Positions 1-60,621 of a DNA stretch of 64,000 nucleotides are shown piece by piece. Source of the stretch: Eledone cirrhosa (Eukaryota). Position numbers and translations under genes: made by a program. A model generated the notes under the pieces. It was not told the DNA's origin. It worked only from the letters and a program-made list of their open reading frames with translations, and searched no databases. The stretch covers positions 298,778,001-298,842,000 of the forward strand of contig OZ024740.1 in assembly GCA_964016885.1 (NCBI GenBank). Reading direction: 5' to 3'. Each line of letters starts with the position of its first letter. Positions within the stretch are counted from its first letter, which is position 1.

Positions 1-1958
1 TCTCAGAATCTTATCAAAGAAGCATTCTCTGGGATTAGTAGATCAAATGCATATGCAAAACACATCTATAATTGATTACTACAGAGTGTACTTCATTGTG
101 TGTATGTATATATGTGTGTGTGTGTATGTGTATGCATGTGTGTGCACATGCATACCTCTTTGCAGTACCACTTCTAGTCTTGTACATATGCTTCTAAAGT
201 TACCCTTAATGATGCTAGCAATTCAAGTAAGGAGAGACAATACTAAAATTTAATATACTGTCCTATAAGAAATGTGTGTTTTTGTTAGCCATCTTAGGTT
301 GCAGTTAGGTCTTTCACTGAATGAACAAGTGTTGGTAGATCAACTCTTCATCAGCCCCATCATTTTAAATCTGATTTCTATGCTAGCATGGGTTAAATGT
401 GTCATCACAAACTGAGACTAGACTTGTTGGAAAACTATTACTTCTAGTAATAGGGAATCTAAAACCTTAGGTATTATCATGAAATTCTGATTGTAATTTA
501 CATAATAAAAAATAATTTGTAATCTACGTCTGGTATTGAGTACTCTTTCTTCAGTTTGTTACTGCTGATGTATAGACATGTGTGTGTGTGTGTGTGTATT
601 TTGAAATTTATGGACAGAGAGAGAGATATATGTAAAATCCTGACTGAGATTATATATATAAAAATATGTGCATATGTATATATACATATATACATAAGTA
701 CATTTGTGTGTGTGTGTGTGTGTATATATTACATATATATATATGTATATATATATAATAATAATAATAATCATAAGGGTTTAGATCCATATCGAATGAT
801 TTTGATCTCGTTGCTTACAAATGTATATATATATACACGTGTGAATGTGTGTATTCATGTTGGTGTCCAGTGGGTTTTTTTTTGCCTGTTTATGTTCCAG
901 CTTCCAGTTCAGTTAGGTCACGCTTATGTATCAAGTCACTCTGTATGTGTGTTTCCTATCTATTTTTGTATTTGATGCATCAGCAAGTTGCCTGCAGTTT
1001 CTCTACACTCTTTAAGTTTATATATGATTCACAGTTCTATATCAGGATGATTTCTCTTATTTTTCTATGATTGAATATCTCCAGGAATCTATGGAGGATT
1101 TTATTGCCAACGTTTTAATGCATGCTACAGCATCAAATCCTATATAGAACTTAGCACTTGATTTAGAATACATCACCCTACTAAACCAGTGCATCTTGTT
1201 TACTCATGTTTAAACACACACACATTCACACACACATAGCCTTTTTTGAACAAACACTAATGCATGCAAACATATGCTTTTAAAATAAATATACTCACTT
1301 GCTTTTTAAACAAACACACGCTGGTACTTTTTAAACAAGCATAAATACACACATGCTTTGTAAACTAACATCACATCCACATGTGCTCTTTATACAAACA
1401 CCCATATGATTTTTAAACAAATAGACAAATACATGCACACTGTTTAAACAAACATAGATATACACACACTTTAAACACCCACATTCTTATGCCCACACAT
1501 GCAAACACTTTCCATTTAGATTTGGAAATTGTATTGGATTTGCTTTGAACACAACATAGTGACTATGGTAGAATAAATATCACAAACTCTTTAATTCATG
1601 GTACTGCACTTTATCAATTTGACCATCAATGACACACACATACATGTATGTGGGCATGGATATTTTCTATCTTAAACATTATTATAAAAAAAAAGTAATA
1701 AAAGAGAAAACCAAGTATTGCTCAGTCCAAAGTGGCTGATAAATTTATGTTGAAACAGATAAGGTGCTGTGGCGGTTAAAAGTTCAGGCAAAGCAGATAC
1801 ACATTCATATTTAATTTCAGACAAAAGGGAATTGAAGATTCTGTGTGGTGTTATCAGTGTGGCAAATGACAGGTGCATGCTTTGATTTGAGTTTTGTCAG
1901 TGGCTTTATTGTTAGATATCAAATTAGTATTTACAAACGTATAACACTTGATATTTTA

Positions 1959-1992
<34 letters not shown>

Positions 1993-1995
<3 letters not shown>

Positions 1996-2155
1996 TGTGG
2001 TTGACGGCTGAGGAGAAAAGAGTACTCAATACTGGAGTAGAGTTTTAATATTCATTTTATTATGGCTAAATAGTGAGTCTTGGAGTTTCAACTCTAGGCA
2101 AAACTTTAGAGTAACAATAACAAGACTCGCTATTTAGCCTTAATGAAAGGAATAT
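1993..2155. other. TA-bounded ~160-bp element ending in a 108-nt hairpin
   Basis: GGCTAAATAGTGAGTCTTG (2064-2082) pairs with CAAGACTCGCTATTTAGCC (2121-2139), and pairing extends out to 2048/2155. Confidence 0.7.
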
Positions 2156-4623
2156 ATCTATCTATCTATCTATCTATCTATATATATATATATATGGCTA
2201 AAACAACCCAATATATATATATATATGTCATCATCACTATTCAGCCTTAATAGAATGAATATATATATATCATCATCATTTCATTTTACGTCCGCTTTTT
2301 CCCTGCTTGCAAGGGTGGGATGGGAACTGATTCTGGTCATATATATATATATGACTAAGACAACCCAATATATATATATATATTGGGTTGTTTTAGCCTT
2401 TTAGCCATCATAGCTGATCCCAACCTGGAATACCTCCTTCAGAGTTGATTGTCCTGTCTTTTGTGTAGTCTCTTAAAGTGTCAAAAGTTCAATGTTGTTG
2501 CATTTTCACGATGCATGGCATCTCTAGTTGGCAGATCAACAAATTGGTAGAGGCTACTTTGGTTTGGTTATAGCTTTTTACAGTTGGCTGGTCTGGCATG
2601 CTAGAGAGGTTATGTGTGGATTATATATAATATATATGTAAAAATTAATGCATGCATGGACGTGTTTGTATAAATATATAAATATATTTATCTGTGTGGT
2701 ATGACTGTACATTGTACATCATCACCATCATTATTATTACTATTTAACATCTATTCCCCATGCTTGCATAGGTGAGATGGGTTGTCATTTTCTGAGGCTA
2801 GACAAGTCAGTTGACAATGCTTTGCTCACATATACTGTTTTTGGCTTGGTTTCTAAGGATGGATACCCTTCCTAACACCCATCATTTTACACCATGTACT
2901 AGGAACATTTTATGATTCCATCACTACCACTTTACATGGATAACTGGGAGATGCCTGTATTTACATTTACTATTTGTTTATCCTCCATGACTTAAGGCTT
3001 CATCAAAGACCAATAAAACAAAGAACCTGTCTTTAAGTGCATGCACACACATAGACATGCACATACACAAATGCATCCATATATACACAAAAGTGAATTG
3101 TGACAACCACATATATGTTTTGGTCAGGAAAGTTATCAAACAAACAAGAAATAGGAACAGTTGGTTGAATTCATAGTCAGTTGAAGAGAAATTCTGAAAA
3201 ACAATGGGGTGTGAAACATTTGAAAAACGGATTTTCAAAGGTTTCAGAGTAAAATAATATTACTTAAATATAGTAGATGGTATGTGAATATTAAATGGTG
3301 GAGGAAAAATATCGACAGATAGAAATAGAAATAGAAAGAGTGTGGAAAGATATAGAGTGATCAGATAGAGAGGGTATGTACTAGAACGATCAGAGGCACA
3401 GAGAGATATTTGCTTGCATGTAAATAATGCTTAGAGGTGTAAAGCAATAGAGAAAATTATAGATGAAACAATGAATATGAAGGTGAATAAGGAAGTTGGA
3501 GGGGATGGGGAAACAATATAGTGAGATGAAACAAGTGGAGGTACATAGAAGAATGTGTAGTTCTAAACAATAGCCTATCACATTACAACAATAAAGTTAA
3601 TAACAGCAACAGCAAAAACAACAAGATGATAATAATAAATAACAACAGCAACAGCAACAAAAACAACACTAATAATAATAATAATAATAATATGAATTGT
3701 ATCATCACCATCATTTAATGTTCACTTTTCTCTTCTCTGCTAGCTCACTGAAGTAATGATATTAATCAGATAAACTAACCAATGAAGATGAATGCATATT
3801 TATACATTCAGAGATATATGAATATTAATATAGATATGCATAAACACACAAATACATACCTCTCATGCTGGTGAAGAGAACATCAACTTATATATTTTTT
3901 ACAAATCTTTCATCCCTCTAGCCTTAATACTCCACCCATCTTCCTATAATCTACTCTGTCATATACTCTCAAACACACACTAAACAATCTTCCTCTATTC
4001 TATGTCACAAACTCGTTAAAACATCCATATACTCGTACATACAAATCACAGTTAGATACTTTACACAATATAAACTTCAACATACAAACATACATTAAAA
4101 TTTAATCATGCACTCACACATGCAAATCCACACATCTCACGGACATACGCTAACACTGCCAGATACTTTACACACATAAACAAAATAAACTACAACGCAC
4201 ATATACAGTACACACACTCAAACTTACATTCACTCACACATAAAAATCCACAACCACACACATACAGATATATGCATAACACACATGAACTTTGATACTT
4301 TACACAATAAACGTTTTAATAAAACACACGTTTAAACATACACATATACTCACACATAATATCAACACTAATACACTCACATTTTACTTAGTGTTCCAAT
4401 TTATGTTACCAAGACTACCTAACGGTTTGTCTTGTTTACTCTCATTATTTTCGTTTTTCTACAACTGATTACCTTTTATTTTCTCTGTCTATCCTTTGTG
4501 ATCCTGTCTCTAATTTTACTCCTGGAGAACGGCTAAAGCCCGACATGTTGAACTTTCTTTCCTCTTATCCATATAAAGCGTGAAACTAATAAGACTTTTT
4601 GTATCTGTTTTGTCGTTTCCTTG

Positions 4624-4818: not shown

Positions 4819-5231
4819 GGAAGCAGAAAATTGCTTTTTGTGATCCAGTTCGTGGTTAAGAAAGCCAGTTTCACTATTTTGAAAATTTGGACTGTGAACA
4901 ACAATTATAATTGAGTGGCTGCTATTTGCAGTATGCAATATAAGGTTGCACTTACCAATGAAACGGTCGTAAATACCTGGATAAAATCCTTCTCTTAATG
5001 CTTACCTGTGTTTTCTCTTTTATATATATACATATATATATACATATAATATATAATATATTTATTAAAATAACAGATTAAAGTTTAAGCAAAGAATCGC
5101 TGCTTTCACCCTTAACGGGATCTTCTACATATGTATTTTGTCTGAAGAGGACATGTTTTGCTTTATGTTATACATAAAACTTTACATCTTTGAAATATAT
5201 ATAATAAAATAAATAGAGATGATATAAACAC

Positions 5232-5515: not shown

Positions 5516-6576
5516 TAAAGTATACATCTTCTGTTTATTACTATTATATATATATATATATATATTCTCATCTCCACGAGGCAAAAAAAAAGGGGTTGAG
5601 AGGACCTTCAGTTGTGCCACAGTACAGCAACTTCTTTACTATTGATGACCTACATGATAAATGCATCCAGTGCATGCTGAAAAGGAGTTGGTGATGGGAA
5701 GGGCATCCAGTGCATGCTGAAAAGGAGTTGGTGATGGGAAGGGCATCCAGTCATAGAAAGCTTGCCAAATAAAGGGTTGGGAAAAACCTTCAGTCATGTG
5801 AAGGACATGATAGCCTCAGGGTTGGGAAGAACCTTCAATCGTGTCAAGAACATGACAGCCTCCCTAGTGTTGGTGACCTACATGATAAATGCACCCAGTA
5901 CATGCTGAAAAGTGATTGGTGATAGGAAGGACTTCCAACTGTAGAAAGCTTGCCAAATAAAGAGCTGGGAGGACTGTTTAGTTGTGTCAATGACATGACA
6001 ACCTCTCCTGTGCAGGTGTAGATAAGGGAACTGCATGTGTGTCTTGTTATTTTCATGGGATTGATGGATTAAAGGACTGTGGCAACTGCTTGGTGATAAA
6101 GGTTCTTTCATGTCCTGTATTGTATAGTTGCTCAGATGCTTGTTGTCACCACAAGCACCAGCAACACCTGGAGTCGCAACTAGTTGCTAGGTCCATTCAT
6201 CTCTAATGTAGCATTTGCTATAGTATGTGTGGGTGTGGGCGTGGCAATGTACGTGTACATATCTGTGTATATATTACAAGAGTATACAGCCCTCCCCATT
6301 GTGCAGGAGGGTTATGTATATATGCAGCACCTACACCGACACTAGGGTATGGAGATTTTTTTTCTGCCGGAAAGCCCCACATTTGTCATCACACAGCCTA
6401 CAAGTGGGGGTGGGAGAACATTAAAAAGGCTTCTCAACAGAATTATTGACTAAAGTAACATTTACAACAGTGGTTTTAATATGCTCTAAGATCAACAATT
6501 TTTGTTACATATTTGAAAACAAGCTAAAAATACAGAACATAGATTGGAGAGAGAGAGAAGGAGAGAGAGATATGTT

Positions 6577-6805
6577 TTAACCCTTTAGCCTTTAAACCGG
6601 CCATATCCTGCCAGAATTTCCTTACCTCTTTCTGTTCAAACTGACTGTAACCAGCCTGTCATACTGATGTTAAGGTATTGTTCTCAAAATAAATAATATC
6701 AAAATCTCATAGATTCGATATTATGTGAGATAACTATATGAGGTAAAGCCTTTATCATGAAAATACAATAGTAAATATAGTGTAATGTAAATGCTAAAGG
6801 TTTAA
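6577..6805. mobile_element. TTAA-flanked (piggyBac-type) MITE
   Basis: TTAA|CCCTTTAGCCTTTA ... TAAATGCTAAAGGT|TTAA. Confidence 0.7.
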
Positions 6806-9800
6806 GGAAGGGCGTCCGGCTATAGAAACCACACCCAAACTGGAACATTATTAACCAAGGTGTTGGCCTCTTGCCTGCTTTGGCAGATGATAGTAACTCT
6901 AATAAACTACTTACTTGGTCTGTGAAAACCCATCCAACCAGCATAGAAAAACGGATGTGAAGTGATGATGATGATGATATATATATATTGTTTGCAAAGT
7001 TTGTTTACATAGTTTAGACAACAAACACATAGATTCTCTCGCAGCAGAGATAGGTTCAATCTCAATTTACACCTCAGTTCAATTTGCTTCAACTGTTCTG
7101 TTAATGAGATGGTGTGTTTACCTCAATGCTTAGAGTGAGAGAGAGAGACACACACAACTGCACAGATCTCCTACTCACCATATGTACTATAATGATGGTT
7201 GGTTGGCAGCAGAGTGGTGTTGGTCTTGGTGTGGAATCTCGCCATAAACACCTAGGTTTTAATTAAGCATGCTCTACTGCACAAAATGTTATTAACACAT
7301 TTGTTCATGTGATTAGTTCTGACCTACCTTCGGCCAGCATCAACTTAGCTTGGTCTGTTGCCAAATGTAGCTAGACAGAACCCCTTGTCTATCGTCTACC
7401 TCACAACACTGTGATAAAATAGACATTAACAATAATGAAAAAAGGAGTGACAATGTTTGTGTTGATTGTTGTAGTGTTGGTGATGGTTATGTTGTTGCTG
7501 TTGGTTCTGACTGGTAGTGGTGGTAGTGGCAGTGATGTGATGGTGATAGTGGTAAAGATGATGCTTCTGCTATTGGTGGTGGCTGGGATATAGTGGTGGT
7601 GCTACTATTAATGGCAGTGTAGTAGAAAGGACAATGATTGTGGTGGTACATCAGTTTATAGTAGGTTTGATTCTGTTGTTAGGGATGCTGGTATTACAGG
7701 AATACTTAGTTTTGGTGTTGGTAATAGTACAGACTTGCATTAGTATTCATGTTATTTGAAGAGGTGATATAGGGAGTGTGATTAACAGCTTTTTATGGTG
7801 GTAATAGCAGAGGTGGTGTTAGTATTGGGGATGCTGGTTAGTTTTAGTGGTGGTCTGATAATATAATGTCAGTTTTTGGAGTTGGTGATTGCACTAGTTT
7901 TAACAATAATAATGTTTGTGTTAGCAACTTGTTAGGAGTGTAAATAGTCATGTTTACATGTTTCCTCCTGAGACAACATTGGTGATTGTACATGATAATA
8001 TGTCTGTAGTCACATAGAGAGCGAGAGCAGTAGACAAATAGATAGATAGATAGATTCAATAGAAGTGCAATGAAGGGAGAGAATCAAAACTGAAGAAGGG
8101 AGAAAAATATTTGAAGTGTGCAAAAACAAATAAATAATTAGAAGAAGGACTGAAGAAAAAATATATATAAAGAAATGGAGGGGAGACTCTCAAGTTATCG
8201 GAACAACCTGTAAATGAGAGAACATTGTAAATAATGAATAGTTGTCCATGCTGTTAATAGATCCTGGTCAAAATTGTTAGCTTTCTTCATTTTGTTTTCC
8301 TGCTGTTTTTCTTGGGTTGAGTTTGTTGTTTTTTTCCCCCTTTTATTTTTCCTTATTCTTTCTGAACTATCAGAATTATGCAGTGAATTTCCGAATGTGA
8401 GTATAGCTATGATGGGTAGTCTATATTCACCCCGCAAAAAAGCTCTGCTGGACTCACCATTACCATTACAATCCCAAACAGACAGAGATATACTATAAAA
8501 TGTTTATGGCCTCTCTTGATAAACATGAAAACGATATCTTATTCGGATGTCAGAAGAAGCAGATTTTTCACTGATGTAATTAGCTAGGATTATTTGGGAA
8601 GATCACATCATAGAAACTTTTGGCAGAGACCACAGTCCAAAAGTAATCCTGTCTAAATATCTGATATCTCCTTTGGCAATTGACATTCCTGTGTTGTCAG
8701 CTGAAGTGTTGGAATGTATCATGGTTGAAAATCATTACGGACCATTTGCCAATAGAGAAAAATAAACTACAGTCTCTTCTTTTCACTTTTTTCTTCATAT
8801 TATAAAGCTCTTGGTGTGAACTAGAATGCTCTTCTTTAACTTTTCTCTTTAATTTATAAAACTCTGCCTTCTTTCTTTGAGGAAAAAGGTAAGTTTCTCC
8901 TTGGTGAGTGAAATAGAAAATTCTTATCTTGCTTTTCTCTTCCTGATATAAAGCTCTGCCCTGTTTTTGTTTCTCAGCAACAAAGTAAATTCCTCTTTCA
9001 TATGTTTCTATGGAATTCCATTCTTTTCATTTTCATTTCCCTTTTTCATCTTTTTGAATTATGCCATCATATCGCCAATATTTGTGTTTACTATTTTCAC
9101 AATACTTCATTCCATCTGAGTCCAATTATCCAGATTTTCCATCTGTCATGGTGTTCAATATTATTGATATCTTAGTAAAAAATACATATTTGTGTTTGTG
9201 AAAATATTTCAATTATTTGACTTCATTTTTGGTGAGTGTTCAAACATGGAAGCCTAAAATTTTAATGAATTTTTAATGAAAACTTTCTCTTTTTATGTGT
9301 TGCTCTTAATACAACTTTTGAAGGAAACCAGGGTTCGAAAATACTGATAATCATTGTTGCCTGCCTGCCCACATAAAACTTGCTGATGAGTATATATTTT
9401 AGACAATGATGACTGCTGCTTTAAGGCTCATAGAAGGCAGATAAGGAAAATGAGTGACACACGCACACACACACCACTCTCTATCTGTCATTCCTTCCCT
9501 TTTTCTGTCTCTATATATTATATACTTCATTATATATATATATATACATCATCATCATCATCACCATTTAACGTCCATTTTTCAATGTAAGGTGGTAGTG
9601 CTGGAGTCATGACAAAATATAAAGTGGTTGGTGTTAGGATGGTCATCTAACCATAGAAACCAAGCTAAAAATGGAACATATGCTTAAGACATGGTCACCT
9701 GACTAGTAAAGCCTTAGAGCATGATAACCTGTCTAGCCAATGCAAGCATGGAAAATAGATGTTAAACAATGGCAATAATGATGATATATATGTATTTTAC

Positions 9801-9931: not shown

Positions 9932-10530
9932 ATGAGAAATAGAAGGAATAGAAAATTAGAGGAGAGTGTGAAAAGTAGGAAATGGGAAAATAAAATTGGG
10001 AGAAAAAGCACGTGTATCCAGCCTGTTGTCACACACACACTCATGCACACGCACACACACACACATGCACACACACATGCACACACACACACACACACAC
10101 ACCCACACCCACACCTATGTATCAATATTTAATATAGAAATGGCTTCTACAAGATTAGAATTGTTTCATTCTTATGAAATCATCAGAAATGCCTGCTTTA
10201 ACTTGGGATCTACATATATATATATATATGCCTTATATACACTCACACATTCACACACATATATATAAAGTATTTCCGTAGAAAAGGTAAAGGAAAGAAG
10301 AGTGCTCTATGTATAGTACAGAGCTATTTTATTATGTAATAAATAACACAATATAATTATTACATAATTAAATATATATATATATATATGTCTGTGTATG
10401 TATATATCATCATCATTTCTAAGTCCATTTTTAACATGCTTGCATGGGCTGGATGAGTCCTTTTCAGCATCTCTCCACTTGCCGTGTTCCTTCGTCAGCT
10501 CATCTGTGAGTCTCAGCAATATATATATGT

Positions 10531-16103: not shown

Positions 16104-17410
16104 ACATCATCATCATCATCATCATCATCGTTTAACGTCCATCTTCCACGCTTGCACGGGTTTGGATGGGAGTTTTCTCACTTGAGGCAAGATTGGTTGT
16201 CCTGCTCGTATAGGACTGTCTGGCGGGTTTTCTACGGCTGGATGCCCTTCCTAACACCAACCACGTTTACAGTGTGGACTGGGAGGTTTTTACCGTGTTA
16301 CCTACACGGCAACATTACAGCGTGGACTGTGTGTTTTTTTGTTGTGACACCTACACGACCTCATTTGTTTCGGACTGGATGTTGTGGTACCAAAATAACT
16401 TTACATTGAAGGGGGTGGTGTGGATGGGGTGGGGGTAGTGGGACAGGGGTGTATTTTTGTTAGAGGGGCCTACTGACTGTAGGTTTCGCTTTGTACTTAG
16501 GCAAGGCGGGTCTTCTGTATTACTGTGTAGTGTGCCAAAGATCTCGGTCCAGTGACATTGTCTTGGAGAGGTGTATGTGTGTGAGGTCGGAATTTATCAA
16601 GTCGTCCCAGGTTTTTCTGGGTCAGCCTACTCCGTGGCTACCGTCTATTTTTATCGCCCTGCACTTTTTTATACAGCTGTCGTCTTTCATGCGCATCACG
16701 TGACCGTACCAATGTAGTCTTCTCTCGAGTAAACAACATCTGATCCCTCTTATTCCTAATTTCTCCCTTAGTTCGTTTATGCTTTGCCGTTCACATATAT
16801 TACTATTACACATCCAGCGGAGCATGCAAGCTTTGTTCCTCTCCAGTCTGCGTATATCCTCTGCACACAATGCCCAGGTCTCACTGCCATGTAACATTGC
16901 TGTTCGTATGCAGGCATCATACAGCCTGTCTTTCATTTTTAGAGAGAACCCTTTAGCGGCCAATAGTGGTATAAGCTCTCTGGACTTTTTCCATCCCGTT
17001 CTGTCTCTAGCTACTGTACTTTCAGAGCACCCTCCCCCACTGCTGATTTTGTCACCCAGATAACGGAAGGTGTCCACCATTTCTATAGAACCATCTGTGC
17101 AATGGAATGAGCTAGTATTCTGTGGGCACTTGCTGCTACTTATTGCACCAGAGCACCGGCCACATATAAAATCTATATTCTTAGTTAGCTTACCTGTGAT
17201 CCCACTACATCTTTTATGCACCCATACTTTGCATTTGGGACATAAAATGGAGTTTCTGCCTACTCCTTTCCTACACACTGAGCATGGCCATTTCCCAGAT
17301 GGGACTGGTGCCCTATTTTCCTTCCTACAAACTAGAACTTTAGTCTTAGACAAGTTAACTTTAAGGCCTTTTGATTCTAGGCCATGCTTCCATGTTTGGA
17401 ATTTCTTCTC
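16104..17410 (-). mobile_element. RTE-clade LINE, 5'-truncated, (GAT)n tail
   Basis: GLKVNLSKTKVL, PHD-like Cys/His finger, FRYLG, MLHGSETW, RLHWYGHVMRM; 3' UTR ending GGACGTTAAAC(GAT)n. Confidence 0.9.
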
Positions 17411-18623
17411 TATATATTTCTTCTCTCTATATATAAATGTATGCACACACACACACATTTATATATATACATACATACACGTATATATAACCTTCCAGTT
17501 TCATTTCACATTATATACATGACTGTATATTTTAATTATTTAAAAATTATTTTTAAGTGAACATGATTTAAAAAAAATATTTTGAAGCTCACAGGTGGTC
17601 TAGTATTTATCTAAAAATCTTCCATTATAATTTTATGAAAGAACCTTTGTTAAGTTATATTCCAGACATCAACTTAATAATGAGAAAGTAAGATACATTA
17701 TTAAATCCTTCTAAATTCTTGATTATTTAAAAAATTAAAGTGTTTTCATTAGAAATATGTAATGATGAGGTTAATCATATTCATCATATTTGAACCTTTT
17801 CTTGTTGAATGGTGGTAAGCTCTTAGAAAGTTCTGTTTGAAATGTGGTTTCAGGTTATGGTGGAGCTATTCCACTTAATTAGCTCTTTGTGTCCCTGAGT
17901 AACAGTTGAACATTTAACTGTAACAATCTCACTACTCATGGAGAATCTGCAAATGTCATGAGTGGTGGAGACTTCTGGCTTTCTTGGTCCCTGTACCACC
18001 TCCTTACTCACTGCTGTTGGGGAGGAGTTGGCCACCTGCTGGAGTGAGCCCTGTGAGTTGGAATGATTATTTCAATGCATCTCCTTTGCTATTTCTCTAG
18101 GGCAATGCACACTTCATTCTGTCCTCTGGGACCATGAGGTGGTTTGCACCTGGGGCTCTACATGCCAGATAACATTCTCTCATACTGTCCATACTTGTAT
18201 CATTGAGTATTCTTTCTAATATTTCTGTTGTATTTAGACTCACTGTCATTATTTACTTTCACCCATGATTCAATATATCACAAGATAAAATAAGTGTGTG
18301 TGTTGTAATGTGTCGATTGTCAAGGCACTCTCACCGGCTCAGTTCACTTATTTGTGAATAGGTAAAAAGGTGCCATCTGCATAACTGGTTTTTCCTCTTA
18401 TCAATGAAGAAACATAATTAATGAATCAACTCCCAGAATGAATATTTTTTTTCCCACTGCTACATGAATGACTACATGTGTTCTGCTTTAAACTATCCAT
18501 TAAATATATGACAAAAGAATCAATAGAGATTTTGACAAAATACCATGTGGTGTTTGGTTATATTCCTTTATGCTCTGATTTCAAATCCTGCTATGCCTTT
18601 CATCATAAAATAAGTGCTGGAAT

Positions 18624-19995: not shown

Positions 19996-20069
<74 letters not shown>

Positions 20070-20657
20070 ATATATGTGTGTATTTATATATTTATATATA
20101 TGTGTGTGTATATATATATATTTACGTATATGTATTTATACATTTATATATATGTATATAATAAATAACAAAGAACGCCTATAGCATATGCATATCTTTA
20201 CTTGCTAACATTGTTTCATCCGCACTATACGTGGGACTCATCAGAGCATAAAGGTTAATTACATACCACACAAGCAATAACAAATCCAAGACATTGAAGA
20301 ATGAAAAATAATAGAAGATAAAGGAAGTAATATATATATATATACATATATATATGTATTTATATATTTATATATATGTATTTATATATTTATATATATA
20401 TGTATTTATATATTTATATATTTATATATGTGTATTTGTTTATTTATATATTTATATATGTGTATTTATATATTTATATATATATGTATATATATATGTG
20501 TATAAATATATATTTATGTGTATATATGTATTTATATATATATATATGTATTTTTTATATATATATATAAATATATATAAACATATAAATACATATATAT
20601 ATATGTATATATATGTATTTATATATATATGTATATTTATGTATTTATATATATATA
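19995..20657. repeat. Compound (TA)n microsatellite tracts surrounding a 170-bp insert
   Basis: Direct inspection. Many similar TA/CA tracts occur, e.g. 29500-29640 and 49540-49725. Confidence 0.95.
20203..20248 (-). ncRNA. Minimal type I hammerhead ribozyme
   Basis: UGCU-CUGAUGA-GUCCCAC(GUAUA)GUGCGGAU-GAAAC-AAU-GU-U-AGCA: 4-bp stem I, complete core, 7-bp stem II with one bulge, 2-bp stem III, GUU cleavage triplet. Confidence 0.82.
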
Positions 20658-21728
20658 CTAGCACAACTGCTATTTAATACCCGGCGTTGCTCGGGTATTA
20701 AATAGCAGTTGTGTATACCATTCATGTCAATACTTCAGTGCTGCTTCGAAAACTATACTTTTACAAAATCATCGGCTTTTTCCAAAAGGGGGTGCCTGCC
20801 CCCAGGGGTCCCCTACTCAATATGTGCCAATTCTGAGAGTTCACATTCATCTGTAGAACAAATGTAGCCCTTGTGTGAAGTTTTGTGAAAATCGGTTGCG
20901 AACTCCAGAAGTTATGACGTTTTGTTGCATTGCACTGCAGTGCTTCAGTCGACTCCAAGAAAGTGGTTAAAGGGGGTTATCTGCCGGGACGCCCTATAAT
21001 CAATATCTGGAAAAATGAAAGTGTCCATGACCATCTGGAGTACATAAGTAACCTATGTCTTAAGTTTGGTGAAAATACTGTAGAAATGCATGAGGTTTAT
21101 ACATACGCGTGTGTGTGTGTGTGTGTGTGTTTGTGGGTGTGTATGTATGTATGTGTATGTCCGTCGGGGCATACGTATGTACTGGCCTAAATCTTCACTA
21201 TTTACTTTTACTATTTTAATAACCTCTGTCATTTTCGTTTTCAATTTTATTTACATCATTCTTAAATTCCGGGCCTGAAAATCATTTTGTTATGTTAAAT
21301 AGAATATTAGTCTAACGACTCCATTTATACCATAAACTTGGTCTTGTCTTTGCATGAAATTGTTCTTCTCGCTCCACATAACGACATACTATCCTCACTT
21401 TTTTCCCGTTCATTGCCAGGGAACGTCTTCACGAACCAAAATATCGTCTTCCTGTTGTCGTTCGGTTGCAATGTTTCTCGAAATATTTACTTCTGCATTC
21501 ACAGATTACTCTCAGTTCAATTTGAATGGGAAATTCCTGTTTCATCGATTTTCTACGTAACCATGGAAGCTTGTAGCTTGAAAGTCGACCCAACGCTTCC
21601 TCGGGTCATTCTGCATAACTGTGTAAATTTTCGCTGCATTCCACCAAGCTGTTTCGACGTTTATCCGACTACACCTACTTACTTACTTAAATATACAACG
21701 TCCAACCACTTCCAATTTATATAGTAGA
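20658..21728 (-). mobile_element. Non-autonomous Helitron
   Basis: The minus strand starts A|TCTACTATATAA and ends hairpin-CTAG|T, inside a TA microsatellite, with no TSD. Confidence 0.75.
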
Positions 21729-47031: not shown

Positions 47032-48108
47032 TCATCATCATCATCATCATCATCGTTTAACGTCCATCTTCCACGCTTGCATGGGTTTGGATGGGAGTTT
47101 TCCCACTTGAGGCACGATTGGTTGTCTTGCTCGTATAGGACTGTCTGGCGGGTTTTCTATGGCTGGATGCCCTTCCTAACACCAACCACGTTTACAGTGT
47201 GGACTGGGAGGTTTTTACCGTGTTACCTACACGGCTACATTACAGCGTGAACTGTGTGTTTTTTTTGTCGTGACACCTACACGACCTCATTTATTTCGGA
47301 CTGGATGTTGTGGTACCAACATCACTTTACATCGAAAGGGGTGGTGTGGATGGGGTGGGGGTGTATTTTTGTTAGAGGTGCCTACTGACTGTAGGTTTCG
47401 CTTTGTACTTAGGCAAGGCGGGTCTTTTGTATTACTGTGTAGCGCCAAAGATCTCGGTCCAGTGACATTGTCTTGGAGAGGTGTAAGTGTGTGAGGTCGG
47501 AATTTATCAAGTCGTCCCAGGTTTTACTGGGTCTGCCTACTCCGTGGCTACCGTCTATTTTTATTGCCCTGCACTTTTTTATACAGCTGTCGTCTTTCAT
47601 GCGCATCACGTGACCATACCCACGTAGTCTTCTCTTGAGTAAACAACATCTGATTACTCTTATTCCTAATTTCTCCCTTAGTTCATTTATGCTTTGCCGT
47701 TCACGTATATTACTATTACACATCCAACGGAGAATGCAAGCTTTGTTCCTCTCCAGTCTGTGTATATCCTCTGCACACAATGCCCAAGTCTCACTGCCAT
47801 GTAACATTGCTGTTCGTATGCAGGCATCATACAGCCTGCCTTTCATTTTTAGAGAGAACCCTTTAGCGGCCAATAGTGGTATAAGCTCTCTGAACTTCTT
47901 GCATCCCGTTCTGACTCTAGCTACTGTACTTTCAGAGCACCCTCCACCACTGCTGATTTTGTCACCCAGGTAACGGAAGGTGTCCACTATTTCTATAGAA
48001 TTATCTGTGCAATGGAATGAGCTAGTATTCTGTGGGCACTTGCTGCTACTTATTGCACCTGAGCACCGGCCACATATAAAATCTATATTCTTAGTTAGCT
48101 TACCTGTG
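47032..48108 (-). mobile_element. RTE-clade LINE, 5'-truncated (same family as 16104)
   Basis: Near-identical ORF C-terminus ending KTRLA* at 47409, ~375-bp 3' UTR and (GAT)n tail. Confidence 0.9.
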
Positions 48109-48712
48109 AATGGAAAGACCAGTAGGAATTTAGAATGATTGAGGTTTAGCTTACTTATTGTTAACACAATAGAAGTAAGGAAATAAATAGTGCTGTTCTG
48201 TATAATAATGTTTAGTGTAATATTTACTAAACTCTGAGTATTATTGATCCTTAGTAGATCTAGATACATGGCAATTAGCTGAATAGTAGTAATGTGTTTG
48301 GTATGAATATAATCTTCAAATATTTCTGTAAAAGTCAGTTTGAGTGAATTGTTTATTTAGATTATGCTGTTGACAATATTGAAAAGAATCATATACTATG
48401 TTTATTAAAACATAGAGTTCTGAGTAACAGCTAGAATCAATCCAAAGAAGACTGGGGATTGATTACTGTTATAGATGGGCAGCTTCTCAGTTCTGTGGCT
48501 TCCCATATATGTATATATATATATATAGATAAATCTACCAAAAGTTTACAGTAGTGTCCAATCCGTATGAAGAACTCAATGTAATCCGGATATCATGAAA
48601 AGAGAAGATGCATTCAAAAACTATTTTCGGTGAAAATTAACGGAAAACAGAGTCAAGATAAATTAATAAAATAATGAATAAACAAAGAAACAGTTCCTTA
48701 TATTAAAAAAAT

Positions 48713-49283: not shown

Positions 49284-49572
49284 GGTCAGTAAAAGGTATA
49301 CGAGCAGTTGCTGTTATAAAACAGTAATGCCAATGCAAATATCTAAGGAGACTAAAATTTTACTATAAGAGTGTTAGTGAAAAAAGTACATCTATGAAAA
49401 GAATATAAATTAATTTAATTGATGGGTATATTTATATTGATAAAATTATACTAATGCATATAGATATGAGAAATAAGAGTTAGATGTAGTTGAAGAGTGC
49501 TGTTTAAGATGAGGGGAAATTAAAAGAATATAAAAATAATATATATATATATTTATATACATACACACACAT

Positions 49573-49655
<83 letters not shown>

Positions 49656-49666
49656 TACACACATAT

Positions 49667-49709
<43 letters not shown>

Positions 49710-49965
49710 TACATACATATACATATAATTATTGGGGGGGGGGATTAAATTTATTAGTGAGAAATAATAGATATATAGAGATTTGAAGGAACATAGATTC
49801 ATAACCTGAAATTAAAGCATTATATATGTTTACTTAATGGTATCAGTTTTAGGAAATGATAGTTGTAAGAAGGAAAATAAAATTATGTAGTTCATCAGTA
49901 GTAGAATATTAATTATAGGTTAACTAAATTAAAAACAGTTTATATATTAATTTCTAAAGTGTATA

Positions 49966-51581
49966 TTAATTAGGTTTATAATATTTAAAGGTTTTTCTCA
50001 GTTTATGATTACACAATATTATTAATTCCTGTCGATTATTTAATAGGATATCCTTAGATTTCATTATTTCAAAAAGTTCTTGGGAACATAATCTACATTC
50101 ATATCTATTATTTTGATAAGGGGTGGCCCTTTTAAGCACACTCCAGGTCAGGTCATAATCTATATTCCTCTTTCTATAATTATTAATTATTTCAGCTAGA
50201 GATGTTGTATTAGCTAGTGCAGCATTTTAAAAACTATGTTTGTGGGTATTAAATCTTACCTTAAATTTGTTAGAGGTAGCTCCTATATATGAATAAATTG
50301 AGTCCTTAGTGTTAACTTTACATTTATATATTATGTTATTAACAAGGCAATTTCCTTTTAATGGGCAGTTTGCCTTGTTTCTACAGTTACAACTTTTTGT
50401 GAATCCTGTATCTGAGGAGATATTATGGTTAGTTTGATGTACTGGTGGTATACTCATGGTTTTTTTACATTTATATGCATTGTAGGCACTTATATTTTGT
50501 TTTATATTTTTGGTTGTTGAGTAGGAGAATTTAACCGTTGATCTATTTAAAATTTGATGGTATTTGTGGTTTGGCGGGAAGTTTTTCTCTAGGATATTAA
50601 AGAATTTCTTAGGTATATTATCCTTAATTTGTAAATTAAATGGAGCATTATACCAAGTAACTCGTCTATTATGGTTCAATGTTGTTTATTGTTTTTATAG
50701 GATGTATCCTGATGTTTATTAAGAGAATTATTGTTAATGACTTCACCACACACATTTTTAGTTAAATTTATTGATTTAGGTGTTTTAGCTTGTTTATTAG
50801 GAGTTTTATTATTAACATTTATTAGAGTTGTAGGATGAGTAGTTTTTTGAGAGTTACTATATTGTATATTAGAAGAGTTAGAGAAATTTGGTTTTATGTT
50901 GGTGTTTTGGGGTATAGTGTGAGTGGCATTTAGGTGTGTATGTTTCATTTGGTGTTTGTTGGTAATATTAGGTTGTATGTTTGTAGTGTTATTGGTAGAA
51001 GGTATATATACTAATTTATTTTTGTGGCCACTTCTAGCTAGAGCTTCGTTATAAAAGGTTGCATTTTTATCAAATACATCCTGGTTAGACGAAAGGTTAG
51101 AAATTCTAAGTGATATATTATATGCAAGGTTTTTAAAGATAGATTTAGGGTGATTAGATTGTGAGTGTATGTAGTGTAAATTTTGGTTAGGTTTATGGTA
51201 AGGTTGGTAGATACCCGTAGATAAGTCTAATGTTATATCTAGGAAATTAACTACTTTACTTGTGTTTTCAAATGTAATATCTAGACTATAATAGTCTTTA
51301 AGGAAGGTTCTAATAAGCTTTTTATTTTTTTCTATCTCTGAAAGGCTAAGGTTATTGGAAAGAAGAAGACAGTCGTCACGATATAAACCACCTTTAAGGT
51401 GGGGAAAGGAAGCATTTATGTTAAAAAGAAGAAAGAGGCCCACAAGATCAGTAATTTGGGCAGAATCGCTTGAGCCCATAGTAATATCGAATAGATTACT
51501 ATATGTGTTTCTGGTCCAGTATTCATTTTGAAATTCCAATAGTGTTAGTCTAGCATGTGTAATAATATTAATGTCATCCAA
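49966..51581 (-). pseudogene. Disrupted RT-GIY-YIG ORF of the Penelope-like element
   Basis: Frameshift near 50677, TAA stop at 50227, second frameshift near 50165. The N-terminal RT motifs are missing. Confidence 0.88.
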
Positions 51582-51662
51582 AGATATATATGGAAGGCCA
51601 CAGAACTGCTCTACGGGTTATATATATATAACCCGTAGAGCATATGAAAGTTTGTGAGTTCA

Positions 51663-55761: not shown

Positions 55762-58700
55762 TTATTATTATTATTATTATTCTTTGAGTCTCAGTCATTG
55801 ATGTTAGTTAACTGGAAAGTTTGTTGAAATGAATATCAAGCCACAACCTGCAGCCTCAGATATTCAGGACTTATCAGAGGGTTCTTGCTGTTCCCAGCAA
55901 GCATGCCTTTTGAAGCGTTCCAAAAAGCGTGAAGGGGCCAATTTTCTTTAACCATCCCTGGAAACTTTTTGAGATAGTCCCTAGTGCGCCTATGACAATC
56001 GGGATCACTTTGACTTCATGGCAGTTCCAAATCCTTTTTACCTCCCACTTTAAGTCCTGGTATCGGTTAATTTTCTCCCTCTCCTTCTCTTGCACTCTCG
56101 TGTCGAATGGGCAGGCCACATCCACAATCAGGCACGGTCTTTTTTCTTTGTCCACAACCACCAGGTCAGGTCTATTGTGTTCCAGTTTCTTGTCTGTCTG
56201 TATCCTAAAATCCCACAGCACCTTCACCTGATCGTATTCTATCACCGAATCTGGCTTATGCTCATATCACTTCTCAGAATGTGGTAAATTGTTTAGTTTG
56301 CATAGGTGCCAGTGGATCACCCTGCCCATCACATCATGTCTCCAGCCCTTATAGTGAGTCTGGGCTAGGTGTTTACACTCGGATACAATGTGAGCCACAG
56401 TCTCCTCTCTCTCTCCACAGATCCTGCACAGTGGGCTAGCCTCCTCCTTGTAAATATGGTGTTTCAACCACTTCATTTTGAGGGCCTGCTCCTGCGCAGC
56501 CATTAACATTCCTTCTGTAGCCTTTTTAAGGTCTCCTCTTTTCAACCAGTTCCATGTCTGTGGATCTCTAAATTCAGTTTTCTCAAAGAAGGTACTATGA
56601 AGGGATTTTTCCTGAAGGCTGCTCTTTCTCCTTGATGTTATTTCCTCCTTGGACATCCCCTGGCCTATTGTCCCCTCCTTCAGTACAGTTCTGAGCATTG
56701 GCTCCTTACTATCAGTCACGTATTTGTGTAGGTTGTTTTTCTCCATCTGAACACAGTCCTCTATGCTGATAAGACCTCTTCCACCTTCATATCTCCTTAA
56801 GTAGAGTCTATCGACATCACTCCTCTTGTGGAACATGTTGTAGATAGTCAATAGCTTCCTAGTTTTCTTATCCATTTCTTTTTGTTCAGCAACATTCCAT
56901 CTCAGAATTCCTGCACTGTACCTAATAATAGACACAGCTCGGGAATTTACTGCACTTATGGCATTCCTACTGTTCAGATGTGACTTTAATACGCTCCTTA
57001 CTCTCCGAATGTATTCAGTTCTTATCAATTCCTTCAATTTTTTGTTCTTGATGTCATCAGCCTCCAGAACACCCAAATACTTGTATCCTTCTTCAGAGTC
57101 AATTTCCTTTATCATCTCACCTGTTGGTACCTGGATTCCGTTACTTCTGCTCAACTTACCCCTCTTCATCACAATGACTCCACACTTACTAATACCAAAT
57201 TGCATACATATATCATTGCTGAAAATACGGACAGTGTCAACAAGCACATCCAACTCCTTCTCACTCTTCCCGAAGAGCTTAAGATCGTCCATGAAGAGGA
57301 GGTGATTGATGGTAAACCCTCCCTTTCCCAACCTGTATCCTGCTCTCACTTTTCGCAGTACACTGGTCAGGGGCATCAGGGGAAGGACAAACAACAGAGG
57401 GGACAGACTATCTCCCTGGAAGATACCTCTCGTGATCTTCACGCTTCCCAAGGATTCTCCAGCTGATGTTAACTCTGTTTCCCAGGACTTCATACTTTTG
57501 CTCAACAACTGTCTGATGTTATCTGCCACCTTGAAGATCTCCAGGCTTTTGGTGATCCAAGAATGAGGCACCATGTCAAATGCCTTTTTGTAGTCTATCC
57601 ATCCTATGGCAAGACCAGTGTGTCTCCTCTTGCAATTCCTCATTACCATCTTATCAATAAGTAACTGGTCCTTTGTACCACGTGACTTCTTTTGGCATCC
57701 TTTCTGTTCGTCCAGTAACAAGTTGTTTGTGTGGAGGTGATGGTAGATTTCCTCAGACATAATGCTTGTCAACAGTTTCCACATTACGGACAGACGTGAT
57801 AGGTCTATAGTTGGTAATATCATTACCCTTGATTCGGTCTTTCATTATCAGAACTGTGGTACCTTTTGTCAACCACTCTGGTACCTCACCTGACATCAAG
57901 CAGTCATTGAACATGGTTGTCAGTTTCGGGTGGAGGGATGTTATATTTTTAATCCAATACCCCTGCACACCATCTGGGCCTGGTGATTTCCAGTTGGTTA
58001 GTTTTTTGGCCTGCCCCTTAAGAGTTTCAACTGTGATACTCAAATCAGTTTGTTGGTGTGCCTGTTCACTAATCTCCTTCTGTACTGTCTCAATCCACAC
58101 TGCCTGGTCATTATGTTTAACATCCTGCTCCCATATTCCTCTCCAGAATGTTTTAGTTTGTTCCGCCTCAGGGATCAAGTCGTTGCCTCTTTCTTTCCCT
58201 TCAAGCTGTCCAAACAGCATCTTCTGGTTGTTGCCGAACATGCGGTTCTGTCTAAACTGACTGACTCTGTTCTCGTATCGCCTGATTTTTGGACTCTGCT
58301 ACAATGCGTTGCTTCAGTTCCTCTATGATAATATTTAGCTTTTTCCTCCTAGTTTTGTACTTTATTTCCAGTCTATTTTTAGTGTCTATGTTTTTTAGTG
58401 TCCCATTCAGTAGGGACTCAAGCTTTCCAATGTCATTTCTCATTTCCCTGATTTGACCACTCAGTCGTTTCTTCCACCAAGGCTCTGATCTTTCTTGTCT
58501 GTTGTTTCCTCTCGCTTTTATACCAAGTAGTTTCCTCACCGTATTTGCTGTTGCTTTGAGGATATTGTTGCACTGGTGAAGGCTCCTCGCCTCAAGGTAT
58601 GGGATGACTTTGTTTACCTTAGCTGTTGTTTCTTTTAACTTTTTCCTGTCTACAAATCTTAGGTTCATAGGTCTCCCACTATCATTGTTCAATTCATCTA

Positions 58701-60621
58701 CCACTAAGTTTAGGATATCAACCAAATCTTGTCCTAGCCCGTCAGCATTCATCTCCTCAGTGGCCGTATCTCTGTTCCAGGTATTATTTATCTCAGCATT
58801 CAGATCATTGTCTGCTTCGGGTGGTTCCTCCGTTCTCTCGACCTCTTCACCTTCATTTCCCACTGGCTCGTTTGCCTGGCATACTCCACTCTCCATCTCC
58901 AAGCTAATCTCTCTGCTCAGTTCCTCCAGTTCCAGCTCGCTTATCCACCCATTAGTTCTTATTACCCGAGCCTGCCCGGCCAATTTTTGTTCATCTAATT
59001 TAAATAGACCAATCTCGTTCCAGATGTTATGCATCCGTTTCCTATAGCCTTTCTCCTTGGGGTTACTCTTCAGGTAACATTGTATAACAGTTCTATTTAA
59101 TTCTTTCGTCCAGTTGGTTCTGGTCCCTTTCCTTCTTTTTCTTCCTCCTCCGACACCAGCAGTATTTGGTTGACAGCCAGGTCCCTGCTGCTGAGCCAGG
59201 GAGCACCTGTTGGGTGAGAGTCTGTCACATGACATTCTAGTCTCCATTTCACCGTTATTCGAACTGTTTAGGTTCGACATTTAAACACTCTTACCGAGGA
59301 TTGGCAATTGTATGGTTACATAACCACCGGTGACCTCATCACCTCCGGTGATTTCGTCACTCCCGGTGATTTTTGTGTGGCATTATCACGCTGTAGACGA
59401 ACATAAATAAACAAACAAACAAACAGGCAAAAAAAAAAACCAAAAATGAATAAGTATACGTTTCATTGTAATGTAGTGTTTGAATGTCTGACTTAGTTTT
59501 TCCCTTCCCTTCTCTGTCCGTCTGTTTGTTTTTCTCTTCATTTTTCTTTTCTTTACGTCTTTTGTTGTTGCTGTGCTGGTTTGATTTTGACTTTTGGTTT
59601 CTTGATTTTGACCAGGTCATCAATTCAGTCTATTTATATATTTTGATGCCTTCCTCTTTTAGTGGGGACACTACGATGTAGCAGGGGGTAGCGGGATAGT
59701 GATAATGAAGCAGTGGTGGTGGTGCTGTGCTAGCAGCAACTAGCAGGAGGTAGTGGGAGAGAATAGTGGCGGTAGCGATAATGAGGCAGTGATGGTGTTG
59801 AAGTTGGAGTAGAAATAGCGGTTGAGTCGACTTGACCAGAGTTTTCATCATGGTGGTGGTGTTGGTGGTGAAATTATCTTTAGTTATTTAGTCATTTTGC
59901 CATTTTTCTGCTTTTCGACTCTAACATTCCTGGTCCAAAATTAAATATTAATCTTGTTTATTAATATTGTCTAGTGATACCGCCACCTTCCCCTTTCGTA
60001 AGTTAACAGAAGGTAATGGGGGGGATAGCGGTGGTAGCAATGAAGGAGTGGTGGCGGCGGTGATGGGATAGTGGTAGTAATGATGGATGGGTGGCGGCGG
60101 CGGTGACTTTAGTGATGGCGTTGTCGTTACTGAGTTTTGTTGAATAGACTGTATTTTTGTTTGATCGGTGAATCTATGGGGTTAGTCGCATATATGTGTT
60201 GACATATTTTCTTAATATTGGAATTAAACATTTTGTTAAGACTTGAGACAATAATAATAGTAATTATTATTATTATGCTGAGATTGGTGATGGTGAAATT
60301 TCCGTTATCTGGCTGTTGTATTTAGCGTACACAGAGGGGTGATGGGGTAGGTGGTGTATCTAGTTTCTGGTGTTGGTGAAATTGCTGTTATTTGGCTGTT
60401 CTATATAGTGTAGACAGAGGGGGTTTTCTTCCATTTATAACCATTTTCTTTTTTGAATATAAAATGTATAATACAAAATTGAATATTTGAGCGATATAAC
60501 AATATATTATGGATCCAAATTTTTCTGAGACTCAAGTCGAATGCCTTATGTATCATTTGTACTAAGAATTGCTATTTCACAATTGATTCAAATATGTTAA
60601 AAATCAAAACTTACGGGAGTG

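What the first reader, a model, noticed from the sequence alone, without database searches (positions are those of the whole stretch)
20160..20330. 170-bp mini-element consisting of little more than an intact minimal hammerhead
Seen: an island of complex sequence inside a ~660-bp TA microsatellite. It contains a 46-nt type I hammerhead (20203-20248, minus strand) with every core nucleotide, UGCU/AGCA stem I, a 7-bp stem II (G.U at its base, plausibly CpG decay) and a 2-bp stem III with an AAU loop. Established: such short-stem-III hammerheads are typical of Penelope pLTRs and non-LTR retrozymes. Inference: a solo pLTR or retrozyme-like monomer. It is the best candidate here for real catalytic activity.
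Basis: partly seen in the sequence, partly recalled or inferred. Interest (0 to 1): 0.72.

Follow-up and report, generated by a model that had tools for sequence, protein, structure and literature searches.

The report
Cut-short end of Penelope retrotransposon
This 175-letter island is the cut-short end of a Penelope-like jumping gene whose end occurs about a thousand times in this genome, mostly beside TA repeats; its hammerhead-ribozyme motif is the family's standard one and likely cuts poorly or not at all on its own, so the copy is ordinary.

Summary
The hammerhead is real (20203-20248, minus; cut site after U20207), but it is not a mini-element or retrozyme. Window 20156-20330 is identical (175/175) to the 3' end of a 4.9-kb Penelope-like retrotransposon on contig C2 (L031). 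Its RT/GIY-YIG protein carries the Hydra-clade motifs, and copies sit in (TA)n. The core has 713 exact and 1,057 near matches in the genome. The window's 5' junction is unique and is the shortest of 19 simple TA-flanked copies sampled (175-4,478 bp). The G.U pair is the family state (1 genome-wide match has C), not decay. Solo activity looks unlikely: stem III is 2 bp, there is no partner in the window, and copies starting at the cut site are at background. Across the family, 3' ends fall at two sites 94 nt apart. In 26 of 26 inverted pairs one arm has each end (7 of 7 in a second family, 164 nt apart). Each end lies just before a GCTC...TYGAGCT hairpin motif. One-sided tails are published, and the scan already noted Hydra ends, twin priming and twin hairpins on other DNA of this genome. 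Verdict: a new member of a known kind.

The parts
20156..20330 (-). 5'-truncated 3' end (175 bp) of a Hydra-clade Penelope-like retrotransposon ('family A'); ends at the proximal 3' end, no 94-nt tail, no inverted partner
   Evidence: 0 mismatches in 175 nt to both terminal repeats of L031; unique 5' junction; only self-hit in the window; TA on both sides
20203..20248 (-). Minimal type I hammerhead motif: 4-bp stem I, 7-bp stem II with bulged C20222 and G.U at its base, 2-bp stem III, predicted GUU cut between 20207 and 20206
   Evidence: 713 exact core matches in G000
20196..20253 (-). Possible extension of stem I by 5 bp past a 2-nt bulge (predicted only)
20208..20214 (-). Near-palindromic 7-nt stem III/loop III; two copies could pair as 3+3 bp around an A.A mismatch (predicted dimer arm)
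   Evidence: cofold -1.6 kcal/mol
19996..20155 (.). TA-type microsatellite at the element's 3' side (likely target site)
   Evidence: 79 of 88 sampled 3' ends have a TA-rich flank
20331..20657 (.). TA-type microsatellite at the truncated 5' side

Best explanation
The island is the last 175 bases of a 4.9-kb Penelope-like retrotransposon with Hydra-clade protein motifs, likely left when the element's enzyme nicked a TA repeat, began copying its RNA at the nearer of two start sites and stopped early. The hammerhead came along because it lies about 50 nt inside the family's 3' end. The copy lacks the ORF and the downstream tail with both hairpins, so it is likely a dead end that cannot be copied again. 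Its ribozyme would need a second copy or the element's protein to fold, so cleavage by this lone copy in the cell is unlikely. Shown: identity, element anatomy, end positions and flanks. Inferred: target-primed reverse transcription, the role of the hairpins, low activity.
For: Identity 175/175 to L031. L031 has direct terminal repeats (1170-1916, 6073-6818) around an 872-codon frame with DKT, YRDD, CxCX5C, GIY-YIG-like IVY...YIG without CCHH, and CxxC/CxH, conserved in 12 homologs. These match the Hydra definition (PMC8557442 section 11). ATG-to-stop intact frames in 3 (L083, L105, L106) of 8 full-length loci examined. 713 exact and 1,057 <=3-mismatch core matches. Of 100 C1 matches, 42 end at the window's end point, 46 end 94 nt later and 12 run on. 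19 of 49 single loci have TA at the 5' side too, lengths 175-4,478 bp. A second Hydra family (50% aa identity) keeps the same stem I, a different but pairing stem II and a palindromic stem III at a similar distance from its end (cut to end 47 vs 51 nt). Published PLE minimal hammerheads were inactive as monomers (PMC4209133) or needed protein (PMC11167929). Predicted share of the active monomer fold: 7e-5 (46 nt) to 2e-8 (171 nt).
Against: Pfam named no family for the protein or any of 13 aligned homologs; the only PDB match is a retron RT at E 0.0014. RT/EN and clade assignment therefore rest on motifs and on comparison by eye with the paper's alignment, not on a tree. The element is longer (4.9 kb) than the '<3 kb' given for Hydra. 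ViennaRNA does not score the hammerhead core and no known-active control was folded, so the activity estimate is soft. No target-site duplication can be read in (TA)n, so deletion of a once longer copy is not formally excluded. The C1 sample was picked by exact core match.
Confidence: 0.92

Rival explanations
1. It is a unit-length non-autonomous mini-element or non-LTR retrozyme monomer that replicates as a small circular RNA.
For: Size and minimal type I hammerhead resemble retrozymes, and retrozyme monomers are described as PLE pLTR derivatives (bioRxiv 10.64898/2026.07.22.740005).
Against: The 5' junction is unique. Lengths form a continuum. No short tandem units among 100 listed matches. 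Upstream sequence in relatives continues into a coding element.
Confidence: 0.02
2. It is a remnant of a longer insertion (solo end left by deletion or recombination within the TA arrays) rather than a primary truncation.
For: TA arrays are unstable, and solo pLTRs without target duplications were ascribed to deletion in Adineta (PMC3846280 passage). The break falls next to a T-rich low-complexity stretch.
Against: Zero divergence from L031 leaves little time. 5' truncation is the rule in this family: 17 of 107 sampled ends start within 120 nt upstream of the cut site or just after it.
Confidence: 0.07
3. Whatever its origin, this copy's hammerhead is catalytically active in vivo and cuts read-through RNA at this locus.
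For: The core is intact; stem I may extend to 9 bp; the motif is kept across two families at 50% protein identity and across the clade (File S2), so it does something in the parent element.
Against: 7 nt between GAA and the cut base against 9-10 in all 25 Hydra families listed (my count). No second copy in 64 kb. The active dimer scores -20.6 against -30.6 kcal/mol for the best dimer fold. Copies starting at the cut site or +2/+3 number 4 genome-wide, about what ~1 start per position predicts. That GUU and G.U lower rates is recalled, not from a call.
Confidence: 0.08

Closest known systems
Hydra-clade C-terminal EN+ Penelope-like elements, incl. Hydra-1_Obim of Octopus bimaculoides (Craig et al. 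2021, PMC8557442)
   Same: RT then GIY-YIG; RW(K/R), DKT, CxCX5C, no CCHH, CxxC and CxH; (TA)n insertion; hammerhead near the 3' end. U before GAA occurs in 17 of 25 and U at the cut site in 10 of 25 families of File S2 (my count; an explicit G.U at the base of stem II in 2 of 25).
   Different: Different family from Hydra-1_Obim (different hammerhead and N-terminus). Unit 4.9 kb against <3 kb, with ~2.2 kb of 3' non-coding sequence and an Asn/Gly-rich insert. Stem III region 7 nt against 9-10. Clear partial tandems and inverted arms.
[quoted passage not shown]
   Same: Long stem II (7 bp), 4-bp stem I, palindromic short stem III, mostly dispersed single motifs from truncated PLEs; a bulge in stem II as in D. 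virilis.
   Different: No unpaired base between A9 and 10.1; G.U instead of the usual G10.1-C11.1; GUU site.
Poseidon_Ac of Anolis (Frangieh et al. 2024, PMC11167929) and tailed inverted Penelope insertions (PMC3846280)
   Same: Two 3' ends defining an optional tail, present on one of the inverted arms; AT-rich targets.
   Different: Tail is 94 nt (164 nt in the second family) against 30-40 nt. The one-tail-per-pair pattern was without exception in this sample, and each end precedes the same hairpin motif.
Non-LTR retrozymes (bioRxiv 10.64898/2026.07.22.740005)
   Same: Type I hammerhead, PLE origin, short non-coding piece.
   Different: No tandem units and no fixed monomer boundary; an autonomous parent with the identical sequence exists.

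Membership tests
Type I hammerhead ribozyme | Core CUGANGA / GAAA / UH with stems I-III | tested here: met
   stem III only 2 bp; Rfam score far below threshold
Type I hammerhead ribozyme | Self-cleavage | not testable with these tools
   No assay. Indirect signs are negative: fold share and no excess of copies starting at the cut
Penelope-like element (EN+) | Single ORF with RT and GIY-YIG endonuclease | tested here: met
   Motifs in P0001 and 12 homologs; intact frames in 3 of 8 full-length loci; Pfam silent; retron RT hit E 0.0014. Applies to the parent, not the 175-bp copy.
Penelope-like element (EN+) | Partial tandems (pLTR), inverted 5'-truncated copies, optional tail | tested here: met
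Hydra clade | C-terminal EN without CCHH; CxCX5C linker; CxxC and CxH around E and N | tested here: met
   against section 11
Hydra clade | RWK and DKT motifs | tested here: met
   RWR (variant) and DKT in P0001
Hydra clade | Insertion into (TA)n and hammerhead near the 3' end | tested here: met
   79 of 88 ends TA-rich; cut site 51 nt from the end
Hydra clade | Generally short (<3 kb) | tested here: not met
   Unit 4,902 bp; descriptive rather than diagnostic in the paper
Hydra clade | RT phylogeny within the clade | not tested
   Reference proteins were only read in the supplement; no tree was built
Non-LTR retrozyme | Tandem repeats of a short hammerhead-bearing unit | tested here: not met
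Non-LTR retrozyme | Fixed monomer boundaries shared by many copies | tested here: not met
Non-LTR retrozyme | Circular/linear monomer RNA | not testable with these tools
   No RNA run available

The most novel reading that the evidence does not exclude
The family shows how Hydra-type Penelope elements integrate. A repeated GCTC...TYGAGCT hairpin motif, present exactly twice per element and 2-5 nt behind each of the two 3' ends, sets two reverse-transcription start sites. One enzyme dimer primes once from each on opposite target strands, so every inverted insertion gets exactly one tailed and one untailed arm (26 of 26 and 7 of 7), with tails of 94 and 164 nt. The window copy is the case where only the proximal start was fixed.
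Probability: 0.5. Interest if true: 0.55.

Novelty: new member of a known kind. Interest (0 to 1): 0.24.

Why it matters
The island itself matters little: it is one of about a thousand ends of a young retrotransposon family, and hammerheads in Hydra-clade ends are published. The family is a useful object, though. It is very recent, has intact coding copies, two sharply defined ends and an unusually short stem III. That makes two open questions testable: what PLE hammerheads do (PMC8557442 section 15 calls their function unclear), and how tails and inverted arms arise. The negative result also counts: there is no genomic sign that cut RNA serves as template in this family.

Tried and rejected
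Rfam: no hammerhead at threshold. Folding z-scores: not significant. Pfam on the ORF and on alignment A1: 0 families. CpG-decay reading of G.U: rejected. Shared 5' boundary or retrozyme unit: rejected. Cleavage-scar test, a lead from earlier finding e1-10310393: of 13 matches to three junction patterns, 4 were true 5' starts (0, +2, +3, +3), 8 were point changes in longer copies and 1 was an internal deletion. The background of about 1 start per position (17 of 107 over ~130 nt, scaled to 937 matches) gives no excess; junctions whose flank base happens to match are invisible. Conservation test within the family: not possible, since the mismatch search listed only exact copies and my sample was chosen by exact match. 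Sequencing runs: no RNA holder listed; four contig sets of unknown kind show the same two ends running into TA but say nothing on expression. Transduction from L031, suggested by a shared neighbouring repeat: rejected, as that repeat is 91-93% identical and oppositely oriented while the PLE part is 100%. The search of earlier findings by sequence found nothing. (rates at GUU or G.U) was seen as a listing only and not used.

Full report
Observation. Stem II has 7 pairs only with a bulged C at 20222. A generic scan gave 2 sites in the window against 0.05 expected from 40 shuffles. Rfam does not recognise it, and its folding energy is not unusual. The TA arrays are 19996-20160 and 20330-20657.

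What it belongs to. A DNA search of the own genome gave 1,118 candidates, and all 40 scored were 99-100% identical. The core has 713 exact matches and 1,057 within 3 mismatches; these count arms, not insertions. In relatives the sequence continues upstream. Locus L031 (C2) holds a whole element: terminal repeat 1170-1916, an 872-codon frame 1946-4564, long 3' non-coding DNA and a second repeat 6073-6818, between TA tracts. Window 20156-20330 equals the last 175 nt of both repeats without a mismatch. It shares a loop-II variant found in only 7 matches at 5 loci, so L031 or a close sister is the likely source. L031 itself is out of frame near the start codon; 3 of 8 full-length loci examined (L083, L105, L106) read open from ATG to stop, so the family is very recent.

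Which clade. The protein has RWR, DKT, YRDD, CxCX5C, a GIY-YIG-like core without CCHH, and CxxC and CxH, conserved in 12 of the 58 homologs that I aligned. Craig et al. 2021 (PMC8557442; seen: abstract, passages, sections 6, 11, 15, 20, supplement parts 1-2 and searched passages) define the Hydra clade by these features plus (TA)n insertion and a hammerhead. Their one octopus family, Hydra-1_Obim, differs in sequence. Against: Pfam found nothing, PDB only a retron RT at E 0.0014, no tree was built, and the unit is 4.9 kb rather than <3 kb. The host is likely an octopus-type cephalopod; this is an inference from the 3.0-Gb AT-rich genome and the only named homolog, from Argonauta.

Mini-element or stub. 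I fetched all 72 clusters behind the first 100 exact matches on C1. 3' ends are bimodal: 42 at the window's end, 46 at +94 nt, 12 run on in tandem; 79 of 88 free ends have a TA-rich flank. Of 49 single-match loci, 19 have TA at the 5' side too, with lengths from 175 to 4,478 bp; the window copy is the shortest. Its 5' junction has 1 match in the genome. Direct repeats are spaced by whole units. It is therefore a 5'-truncated stub, not a unit-length element or retrozyme (retrozyme definition from bioRxiv 10.64898/2026.07.22.740005; seen: part 1 of 5 and passages).

G.U and GUU. 99 of 100 listed matches have U11.1, and 1 match genome-wide has C. In File S2, 17 of 25 Hydra families have U before GAA (2 as an explicit G.U pair) and 10 of 25 cut after U (my count, the duplicate row counted once). 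These are clade traits, not decay of this copy; an ancient CpG change in the master cannot be excluded.

Does it cut. Structure is under selection in the parent elements. A second Hydra family in this genome (50% protein identity) has the same stem I, an unrelated but pairing stem II, a palindromic stem III and a CCGAAGA core, 47 nt from its end against 51 nt here. For this lone copy the signs are poor. Stem III spans 7 nt against 9-10 in all 25 listed families. The constrained active fold holds 7e-5 to 2e-8 of the ensemble, and the active dimer is 10 kcal/mol above the best dimer fold. ViennaRNA ignores core contacts and I had no positive control, so this is soft. No partner lies within the window. 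Published PLE motifs were silent as monomers (PMC4209133; seen: parts 1-2 of 4) or needed protein and were dispensable for insertion (PMC11167929; seen: parts 1-2 of 4). Copies that begin at the cut or 2-3 nt after it number 4 genome-wide, which is background. No RNA data could be had.

Mechanism. Inferred from PLE biology (PMC11167929): the GIY-YIG domain nicks (TA)n and the RT starts inside the RNA at one of two sites. Here copying from the proximal site stopped after 175 nt and was joined to the TA target. The stub lacks the ORF and all sequence past the proximal end; the motif below has 0 matches in the window. It is likely inert.

What is more interesting in the family. In 18 of 18 C1 inverted pairs with two free ends, one arm is tailed and one is not (0.5^18 = 4e-6 if independent). 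A 19th pair ran on in tandem and was left out, as were two other three-copy loci. Eight of 8 pairs from other contigs agree, and so do 7 of 7 in the second family, whose ends are 164 nt apart (4 loci without a visible second arm were not counted). A one-sided tail is published (PMC3846280, passages; PMC8557442 Fig. 2 legend), at 30-40 nt. Following a lead from earlier scan notes, I tested for a hairpin behind the ends. GCTC...TYGAGCT occurs exactly twice in each unit, 2-5 nt behind each end, in both families; it folds as a bulged hairpin in 3 of 4 cases, and in the fourth only the lower stem forms. I wrote the pattern after looking at these four sites, so its specificity is partly circular. 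Three paper searches found no description of this family or of the motif; the library lacks most subscription journals and Repbase/Dfam were not searched.

Verdict. Observation confirmed, interpretation partly supported. This is an ordinary truncated copy of an apparently undescribed Hydra-type family: a new member of a known kind, interest 0.24.

Noticed in passing
window 10142-10193 (-): A second hammerhead motif with 4-bp stem III, GUA site, 3-bp stem II with U.U at its base and a mismatch in stem I. It belongs to an older family (~90% identity, 1,113 candidates) of very short copies, several as tiny head-to-head inverted pairs.
   Followed up: partly
window ~5134-5220 (+): Third hammerhead-like motif with an ATATAT-type stem III and a long stem II region; related motifs with varied stem II sit next to TA in L137, L145 and L150.
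   Followed up: no
window ~49730-51620 (-): 5'-truncated, frameshifted fragment of a third Hydra-type PLE ORF ending at the TA array 49528-49727; no intact hammerhead found in its tail by the scan.
   Followed up: partly
window 20662-20713: Perfect 22-bp inverted repeat right after the TA array, opening a repeat that resembles the 5' end of Helitron-like elements (label recalled). Its later part (20874-21400) matches L031 1-647 at 91-93%.
   Followed up: partly
L137 and related loci (G000 C23, C15, C4 and others): Second young Hydra family, 4,199-bp unit, with many 832-codon open frames, a hammerhead core CCGAAGA (U4 to C) and a 164-nt tail.
   Followed up: yes
L031 ~3490-3830: Asn/Gly-rich insert with a duplicated ~25-residue unit after the RT thumb, reminiscent of N-rich inserts in Adineta Penelope ORFs (PMC3846280 passage).
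   Followed up: no
L050: A family A copy lies directly behind the 3' end of a second-family copy, as expected from a shared TA target.
   Followed up: no
window 16622-17458 (-), 47409-48356 (-), 55874-59280 (-): Fragments of non-LTR retrotransposon ORFs; not classified.
   Followed up: no
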